Of a stretch of 64,000 nucleotides of DNA, positions 57,285 through 57,511 are shown in pieces. This DNA is from Candidatus Versatilivorator sp. (GTDB taxonomy: Bacteria > Acidobacteriota > Terriglobia > Versatilivoradales > Versatilivoraceae). A program made the position numbers and the translations under genes. The notes beneath the pieces were generated by a model, which was not told where the DNA came from, ran no database searches, and was given only the letters and a program-made list of their open reading frames with translations. Each line of letters opens with the position of its first letter. The stretch's first letter is position 1. The stretch spans positions 4,960,001-5,024,000 of the forward strand of contig OZ242296.1 of NCBI GenBank assembly GCA_965207735.1. The letters run 5' to 3'.

Positions 57285-57511
57285 ACATGGATGAACAGGA
57301 TCAACAGGATAATTGCTTGATAGTCTGGGCTGCGTACTCCGGGATGAGAGTCGTCGCCCTCCTTGAACCCGACCATCGCCCTTAATTCAACAACGATCTC
57401 CAAAAACCCGCTCCCAAGCTCATGGATGACCTCGAATACGCACTCGATCACGGAGCGAGTCAGCCTCACAGGCACCAATCCGTTATCCTGTCCATCCTGT
57501 TAATCCATGTT
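57285..57511 (-). mobile_element. GxxExxY-derived miniature element D (internally deleted)
   Basis: AACATGGATTAACAGGATGGACAGGAT / ATCCTGTTCATCCATGT ends. In frame MD*QDGQDNGLVPVRLTRSVIECVFEVIHELGSGFLE-IVVELRAM. Confidence 0.8.

What the first reader, a model, noticed from the sequence alone, without database searches (positions are those of the whole stretch)
57285..57511. Internally deleted GxxExxY nuclease gene between conserved inverted repeats: signature of an undescribed mobile element class
Seen: inverted ends built from 9-bp CAGGAT subrepeats enclose LTRSVIECVFEVIHELGSGFLE joined directly to IVVELRAM. Established: GxxExxY proteins (PD-(D/E)xK fold, function unknown) begin LT..IIG.AFEVH.ELG.GFLE.VY and carry D..VE..VIVELKA later, so a large middle portion is missing here. 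The ATG inside the terminal repeat is in frame with the remnant. Inference: this is the pattern of non-autonomous derivatives (ends kept, enzyme deleted), implying GxxExxY genes mobilise their own IR-bounded cassettes. I see no target duplication, which would fit a non-DDE mechanism.
Basis: partly seen in the sequence, partly recalled or inferred. Interest (0 to 1): 0.8.

Follow-up and report, generated by a model that had tools for sequence, protein, structure and literature searches.

The report
Gutted nuclease cassette, spreading without transposase
This is the deleted leftover of a small nuclease gene that sits between two repeat arms in many bacterial phyla; the intact cassette lands between genes without the usual transposon scar and likely moves by cutting DNA and letting the cell repair it, while leftovers like this one have multiplied mostly inside larger repeat patchworks.

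Summary
It is a 226-bp remnant of a ~480-490-bp GxxExxY cassette; intact versions with the same CAGGAT arms exist in congeners and many other phyla. Corrections: there are two deletions plus a frameshift, the arm ATG meets a stop at codon 3, and 'IVVELRAM' descends from LLVEEKVV, not the catalytic VELK. The genome holds 174 arm ends, about four founder-deletion classes amplified after gene loss, and no intact gene. The site is polymorphic within the species, but the empty allele is a deletion scar of an old copy. Against: 142 of 174 arms share long outer flanks, 0 of 8 strain indels end at arms, copy number ignores the intact gene, and some GxxExxY genes ride IS-type ends with duplications. 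Best model: a repair-mediated selfish PD-(D/E)xK nuclease cassette (mechanism inferred). No paper found; this scan noted the system before on other DNA.

The parts
57485..57510 (-). 5' arm (core ACATGGAT + two ACAGGAT heptamers at 9-bp period); holds the old start codon at 57508-57506, followed by TAA at 57502-57500
57398..57463 (-). GxxExxY N-terminal remnant LTRS...GFLE (22 codons), ending just before the Y of GxxExxY
57393..57397 (-). junction of deletion 1 (117 nt, 39 codons, in frame), shared roughly with the 206- and 233-bp remnant classes
57311..57397 (-). middle remnant, descendant of LLVEEKVVVELK...PEHSAQTIN, with a +1 frameshift; ends at deletion 2 (123-132 nt of C-terminal gene and spacer)
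57285..57310 (+). 3' arm (inverted copy)
57291..57513 (.). segment missing, with a 3-nt filler, in the empty allele of G002 and runs X3 (one of two alleles), X17, X18
57261..57284 (.). short outer flank loosely shared with sister copies (best 24 nt) and kept in the empty allele
57511..57520 (.). short outer flank shared with sister copies (10 nt), partly kept in the empty allele
55454..57202 (-). neighbour: sodium/solute symporter-like gene (divergent)
   Evidence: TIGR00813 E 5e-27, below cut-off
57618..60248 (+). neighbour: 876-aa gene with no NCBIfam match (divergent)

Best explanation
The element is a twice-deleted, dead copy of an armed GxxExxY gene cassette, and the intact cassette is likely a selfish element whose predicted PD-(D/E)xK nuclease would recognise its own heptamer arms, cut DNA, and let host break repair copy the cassette into gene junctions without a target duplication. 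Shown: derivation from the intact cassette; arms at the cassette edges in intact copies; many unrelated operon-junction sites; four or so founder deletions each amplified; this copy is old and was later lost from some strains by one near arm-to-arm deletion. Inferred: nuclease activity, binding to the arms, and repair-based copying. Also inferred: in this genus the remnants spread mostly inside larger repeat mosaics, by repair between shared modules and by other elements' ends, so the cognate nuclease need not have moved each copy.
For: Fold is a minimal PD-(D/E)xK core, pLDDT 95; nearest solved folds are Cas4, lambda exonuclease, other restriction-like proteins and Hjc; E27 invariant, D66, E76, K78, Q90, Y94 at least 90% conserved in 66 rows. 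dN/dS 0.06-0.26 in all 15 pairs of six congener genes. Arms: 36 of 76 cross-phylum loci have both CAGGAT arms, 48 the left, 47 the right. Arm type follows protein clade: 0 of 117 loci had different types on the two sides, 59 the same type on both; 29 label changes vs 53.6 shuffled (quick tree, crude typing). In 49 cassettes the third heptamer, outside the search anchor, keeps its consensus in 39-48 of 49 rows on both arms, while the variable dinucleotides do not pair above chance (66 of 196 vs 63.7): sequence is conserved, pairing is not, as for a binding site. At least 18 unrelated neighbour families, 13 loci before an N6 methylase. The arm ATG lies 5-12 nt after the upstream stop in 15 of 18 loci printed. 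Two G011 cassettes of other arm types replace 10-29 nt of spacer, flush with the arms, no duplication; 8 of 8 and 7 of 7 other genomes are empty there. At gspE-gspF the gene of G012 and G013 is not monophyletic (AU p 8e-9) though both flanking genes are.
Against: No cutting, binding or mobility was measured. No intact GxxExxY gene in G000 yet 174 arm ends; no link between gene presence and arm count; G011 amplified this class to about 96% identity with no intact cognate gene found. A structural match shows no function, and the best Z of 8.9 is modest. The flush insertions are of paralogous arm types in a genome about 80% identical, and the sister genome G001 differs at both sites. Tree discordance at gspE-gspF could be differential loss from a tandem array. 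The cross-phylum set is biased to armed copies, because one scan pattern was the arm-encoded peptide. Cross-phylum spread may partly be hitch-hiking with restriction-modification operons.
Confidence: 0.45

Rival explanations
1. Strict first-reader model: the arms are terminal inverted repeats and GxxExxY is a dedicated transposase that moves arm-bounded MITEs in trans.
For: Amplification after internal deletion; one fixed intact locus flanked by gene-less doublets, like RAYT/REPIN; arms flush with junctions in two intact cassettes; the empty allele here is 220 bp shorter, the exact arm-to-arm length between the two CATG.
Against: 142 of 174 arms have shared outer flanks, median 102 nt; 0 of 8 G002-filled indels end at arms; flanks of G011 copies are as alike as the element (95% vs 96%); no dependence on an intact gene; the empty allele differs in 4 nt from a precise site and keeps family flanks.
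Confidence: 0.2
2. GxxExxY is a passenger or host-useful accessory nuclease; the arms are operator or stabilising sites, and all movement is done by other enzymes (RAYT/TIRYT, DDE transposases, P4-type integrases) or plain host recombination.
For: A paralogous GxxExxY gene rides between IS-type inverted ends with 4-bp direct repeats (L259, L260), ends that match the one beside the transposase in this window. G000 has a Y1 transposase flanked by its own REP doublets and a 204-copy junction module that bounds the amplified unit in G011. 112 of 174 arm ends have another module within 260 nt vs 54 of 1000 random places. Purifying selection fits host benefit too.
Against: Does not explain why each protein clade has its own arm heptamer on both sides, nor intact cassettes flush with their arms and free of other modules. 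No PADLOC match for the CAGGAT-type proteins.
Confidence: 0.27
3. The arms act in RNA: they fold the cassette out of the operon mRNA (as for rRNA intervening sequences) or hide the start codon.
For: Stable predicted stem, z -6.0 and -5.4; cassettes mostly co-oriented in operons; the start codon lies in the arm, in frame in 40 of 49.
Against: No G-U bias on the sense strand (44 G-U vs 71 A-C in intact copies, 13 vs 32 in remnants); no covariation at variable positions; no Rfam match. It also does not explain spread.
Confidence: 0.08

Closest known systems
REPIN-RAYT systems and TIRtrons (PMC3337134 passages; 10.1101/2021.07.10.451892 abstract; PMC3733652 passages)
   Same: One small enzyme gene at a fixed locus flanked by inverted doublets; many gene-less doublets in intergenic space; tandem arrays; sequence type tied to enzyme type; lineage-restricted population (14 of 14 genus genomes, 1 of 27 others).
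   Different: The enzyme is PD-(D/E)xK, not an HUH tyrosine transposase; arms are 9-bp-period heptamer arrays, not palindromic REPs; the 5' arm is inside the ORF; the intact gene also turns up across phyla at unrelated sites.
Bacterial MITEs (PMC3184786, section 4 read)
   Same: Short, inverted ends, hairpin, internal-deletion origin, multicopy, filled and empty sites.
   Different: No target duplication and no parent transposase; the arms are not the ends of most amplified units here.
Free-standing homing endonucleases, T4 seg/mob (PMC2988022 passages; PMC10055350 abstract)
   Same: Small nuclease gene between conserved co-transcribed genes; patchy presence; replacement at a fixed site; variable junctions as expected from break repair.
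   Different: Chromosomal; not found in the phage collection; PD-(D/E)xK rather than GIY-YIG/HNH; bracketed by arms ('inverted repeat' does not occur in PMC2988022); leaves amplified gene-less derivatives.
GxxExxY / PDDEXK_3 family (TIGR04256, PF13366; PMC3424549 passage)
   Same: The remnant derives from a full member (L076: TIGR04256 E 5e-43).
   Different: The paper lists function 'Unknown' and multiple transfers; the passage seen mentions no arms or derivatives.

Membership tests
GxxExxY (TIGR04256/PF13366) gene remnant | Homology to the family | tested here: met
   HMM E 0.0031 below cut-off; DNA match to intact member E 4e-21; intact member E 5e-43
GxxExxY (TIGR04256/PF13366) gene remnant | Intact ORF with GxxExxY and D...ExK in the window copy | tested here: not met
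   Stop at codon 3, two deletions, frameshift, ExK decayed
MITE | Multicopy, derived by internal deletion | tested here: met
   51 paired copies under 300 bp, shared deletion classes
MITE | Inverted repeats are the termini of the mobile unit | tested here: not met
   142 of 174 share outer flanks; 0 of 8 indels end at arms. The window copy itself shares only 10-24 nt.
MITE | Target-site duplication | tested here: inconclusive
   No pristine site for this copy; CATG at both ends is palindromic and part of the arm; none at two intact paralogous insertions
MITE | Cognate transposase with the same ends | tested here: not met
   The gene with these ends is a PD-(D/E)xK protein; only TIGR04256 matches
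REPIN-RAYT / TIRtron | HUH-Y tyrosine transposase linked to the repeat | tested here: not met
   The only Y1 hit in G000 is flanked by a different repeat
REPIN-RAYT / TIRtron | Enzyme gene at a fixed locus flanked by doublets, dispersed gene-less doublets | tested here: met
   Six intact genes at gspE-gspF with doublets beside them
REPIN-RAYT / TIRtron | Repeat population depends on the enzyme | tested here: inconclusive
   Mean 193 vs 187 matches with or without an intact gene, 7 vs 7 related genomes, some incomplete; recent gene loss would hide a dependence
Free-standing homing endonuclease | Nuclease gene between conserved genes, patchy, replaced at a fixed site | tested here: met
Free-standing homing endonuclease | Site-specific cleavage of the empty allele with co-conversion | not testable with these tools
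   needs biochemistry or crosses
PD-(D/E)xK nuclease (intact protein) | Fold and conserved E...D...ExK | tested here: met
RNA intervening sequence | Stem selected for pairing on the transcript | tested here: not met
   No covariation, no sense-strand G-U bias

The most novel reading that the evidence does not exclude
GxxExxY genes are the enzyme of an undescribed, pan-bacterial class of mobile element: a ~125-aa PD-(D/E)xK nuclease reads clade-specific heptamer arrays at both ends of its own gene, cuts there, and moves the armed DNA, full or gene-less, into stop-start junctions with no target duplication. It would be a fourth route to REPIN-like repeat populations, with neither DDE, HUH nor recombinase chemistry.
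Probability: 0.35. Interest if true: 0.85.

Novelty: new variant of a known kind. Interest (0 to 1): 0.58.

Why it matters
It gives a testable role to a large family of unknown function (2678 relatives at E<=1e-20 among 3333 candidates scored) and an origin for an abundant repeat family. The clade-specific heptamers supply a ready substrate and swap controls for a binding and cleavage assay. If the nuclease moves its cassette, it is a new mobility chemistry. The window copy itself is an old, dead remnant; its value is as a marker of the system.

Tried and rejected
Intact gene in G000: none; best hits are partial. PDB sequence search with protein and profile: nothing significant. Rfam: two chance-level hits. 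tRNA target: none in the window. Phage collection: no match; plasmids: 7 distant records. PADLOC: none for three proteins, one weak hit (E 0.005) for a paralogue. Homodimer prediction gave no verdict. MAFFT could not place the deletions; pairwise alignment was used. The careful tree did not finish, so the quick tree is quoted; its regex arm typing mislabels some rows (for example L090, L195) and leaves 21 untyped; four duplicate loci and rows with stops or short flanks were left out. One locus (L092) had the wrong strand and was ignored there. Three G000 'empty' sites were checked in 4-5 further genomes: each is a hotspot with other mosaics, so they are not pristine targets. CATG as a 4-bp duplication was considered: the length fits, but 4 nt differ, basal genomes carry the element, and many arms read CATC. 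The 3-nt filler could be templated from a 7-nt match 25 nt upstream; not tested against chance. A divergent-promoter reading of the flanks was not found by the scan. Integrase linkage: 7 of 32 within 3 kb of an arm vs 12% at random, weak. Literature searches: GxxExxY (two unrelated listings), PDDEXK_3/PF13366/TIGR04256, and searches found no description of the cassette; the library lacks most subscription papers, and no supplements were read.

Full report
Observation. The arms (57285-57319, 57476-57510; 83% over 35 nt) and the minus-strand peptide are as described. HMM support is weak alone (TIGR04256 E 0.0031; PF13366 E 0.065). DNA alignment to intact genes of congeners is decisive and shows two large deletions, a 9-nt loss and a frameshift. 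The arm ATG is in frame but meets TAA at codon 3. IVVELRAM descends from LLVEEKVV; the catalytic VELK is now VGFK.

Family in the genome. G000 (5.26 Mb, 62% GC) has 174 arm ends, 0 in a shuffle; 52 strict pairs, 51 of them 142-271 bp; 70 ends are unpaired by the strict motif, many with a degenerate partner. Interiors fall into about four founder-deletion classes (about 144, 151, 206, 233 bp), so copies multiplied after the gene was broken. No intact GxxExxY gene was found in G000. The motif is in 14 of 14 genus genomes (29-444 matches) and 1 of 27 others. Record titles of the nearest loci name Acidobacteriota/Terriglobia, two of them Ca. Versatilivorator or its family.

This site. It lies between two divergent genes. 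Among close strains it is filled in runs X1 (possibly the source), X4, X8, X12, X13, empty in X17, X18 and G002, and mixed in X3; all empties share one junction, 57290 to 57514 with a 3-nt filler. The basal genome G005 has the same copy at 91% identity (206 of 226) against 79% (195 of 246) at fourfold sites, and G012 keeps the right junction. So the copy is old and the empty allele is most simply one near arm-to-arm deletion (inference). Five genomes have a shorter 130-bp region and two have other mosaics.

Intact cassettes. Six congeners carry the intact CAGGAT gene at one site, gspE-gspF, often beside gene-less doublets; G000 has two remnants there, G004 a 5-nt spacer, G001 40 nt. dN/dS is 0.06-0.26 in all 15 pairs (simple counting). 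G012 and G013 are sisters for gspE, gspF and the window's neighbour gene, but not for the nuclease (AU p 8e-9): replacement at the site, or differential loss from an array. Across phyla, 36 of 76 loci have both arms (biased, since one scan pattern was the arm-encoded peptide). Of 146 neighbour ORF candidates I scanned 73; they show at least 18 unrelated neighbour families, 13 loci being before an N6 methylase. In 15 of 18 loci printed the arm ATG lies 5-12 nt after the upstream stop; the 3' arm mostly ends about 15-25 nt before the next start, and in one locus its own ATG is that start. Two G011 cassettes of other arm types replace 10 and 29 nt of spacer, flush with the arms, without duplication; 8 of 8 and 7 of 7 other genomes are empty, while G001 differs at both sites.

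What the arms are. Arm type follows protein clade, with no locus of 117 showing two different types (quick tree, crude typing, kin not independent). In 49 cassettes the heptamer is conserved on both the coding and the non-coding arm, also outside the search anchor, while the variable dinucleotides pair no better than shuffled partners (66 of 196 vs 63.7; 777 of 2000 shuffles as high). There is no sense-strand G-U bias. This fits protein-binding sites on DNA better than a selected RNA stem (inference). The protein folds as a minimal PD-(D/E)xK core with conserved E, D, ExK; the conserved QxxxY recalls RecB/Cas4-type nucleases (recalled, no call).

What moved the remnants. 142 of 174 arm ends share at least 40 nt of outer flank with another copy, median 102 nt; the window copy is an exception (10 and 24 nt). 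I compared 60 G002 stretches (around the first 100 of 195 listed matches, plus 140 kb) with G000: of 35 clean indels, 8 G002-filled ones contain an arm and none ends at it. Three of these sites, checked in 4-5 more genomes, are hotspots that hold different mosaics. In G011 eight copies of the window's class are 96% alike and their flanks 95% alike, bounded by a separate junction module that has 204 copies in G000. Arm counts average 193 in 7 genomes with an intact cognate gene and 187 in 7 without. A paralogous GxxExxY gene travels between IS-type ends with 4-bp direct repeats. So the remnants mostly spread as parts of larger units, and the lack of a duplication at the arms of this copy says nothing on mechanism.

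Mechanism. Best model (0.45): a selfish nuclease cassette that cuts at or near its arms and is copied by host break repair into gene junctions, decays by internal deletion, and seeds repeat populations that then also spread by repair between modules and by other elements. Derivation, anatomy, sites and polymorphism are shown; cutting, binding and repair are inferred. Rivals: passenger of other enzymes (0.27), dedicated transposase with arm-bounded MITEs (0.20), RNA-level stem (0.08).

Known systems and novelty. It works like REPIN-RAYT or TIRtrons (PMC3337134 and PMC3733652, passages; 10.1101/2021.07.10.451892, abstract) and like free-standing homing endonucleases (PMC2988022, passages; PMC10055350, abstract), but fails the HUH test and the MITE end and transposase tests (PMC3184786, abstract and section 4). 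PMC3424549 (one passage) lists PDDEXK_3 as function unknown with multiple transfers. Searches found no description of the armed cassette; subscription papers and supplements were not seen. Earlier notes of this scan report the same system on other DNA; they are leads, not support. Verdict: new variant of a known kind, interest 0.58; categorically new if the nuclease is shown to move its cassette.

Noticed in passing
window 12450-12500 (G000:4972473); L262: Empty stop-2nt-start junction before a SixA-like gene (name recalled from the motif); G011 has a 1.6-kb insertion there with an intact GxxExxY gene of another arm type whose arms supply new gene ends, plus a tandem copy of the downstream gene start; G001 has a different insertion.
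   Followed up: yes
G000 genome-wide; L146: A ~63-bp junction module with inverted 8-bp ends (204 right halves); amplified units start and end inside it and form tandems, as if it were a recombination site. No enzyme identified.
   Followed up: partly
window 60657-61930: IS1182/IS5-like transposase whose end motif has 184 matches in G000; miniature versions with 4-5-bp duplications carry GxxExxY genes or remnants of another arm type.
   Followed up: partly
window 50806-52122; G000 genome-wide: P4-type integrase; 39 integrase hits in G000, most of similar length and score. Several sit at breaks inside CAGGAT remnants.
   Followed up: partly
G000:2.21-2.27 Mb (L001, L159, L076 site): The type II secretion region holds the home sites of three repeat systems: a Y1 transposase with its REP doublets, a CACGAAG-arm GxxExxY remnant and the CAGGAT site.
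   Followed up: partly
L159: The REP doublets beside the Y1 transposase have interiors that match the end of that gene, so they too look like deleted cassettes.
   Followed up: no
G014:C59:287495-288799; G017:C4:159997-161314: Three tandem intact GxxExxY genes with periods of 477 and about 484 bp.
   Followed up: no
window 20736-20971 and 20980-21183: A second 236-bp remnant of the same class and a further arm lie in this window (G000:4980736, 4981159); more arms at window 1598-1723 and 7680.
   Followed up: partly
window 52363-52700 and 60300-60440: Copies of another palindromic repeat family (CCCCCTCAAGGGGGGAG type) between genes.
   Followed up: no
L249-L253 (G000:1283576 site): Hairpins with 7-bp-period arms enclose other modules; G000 keeps only a short scar.
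   Followed up: no
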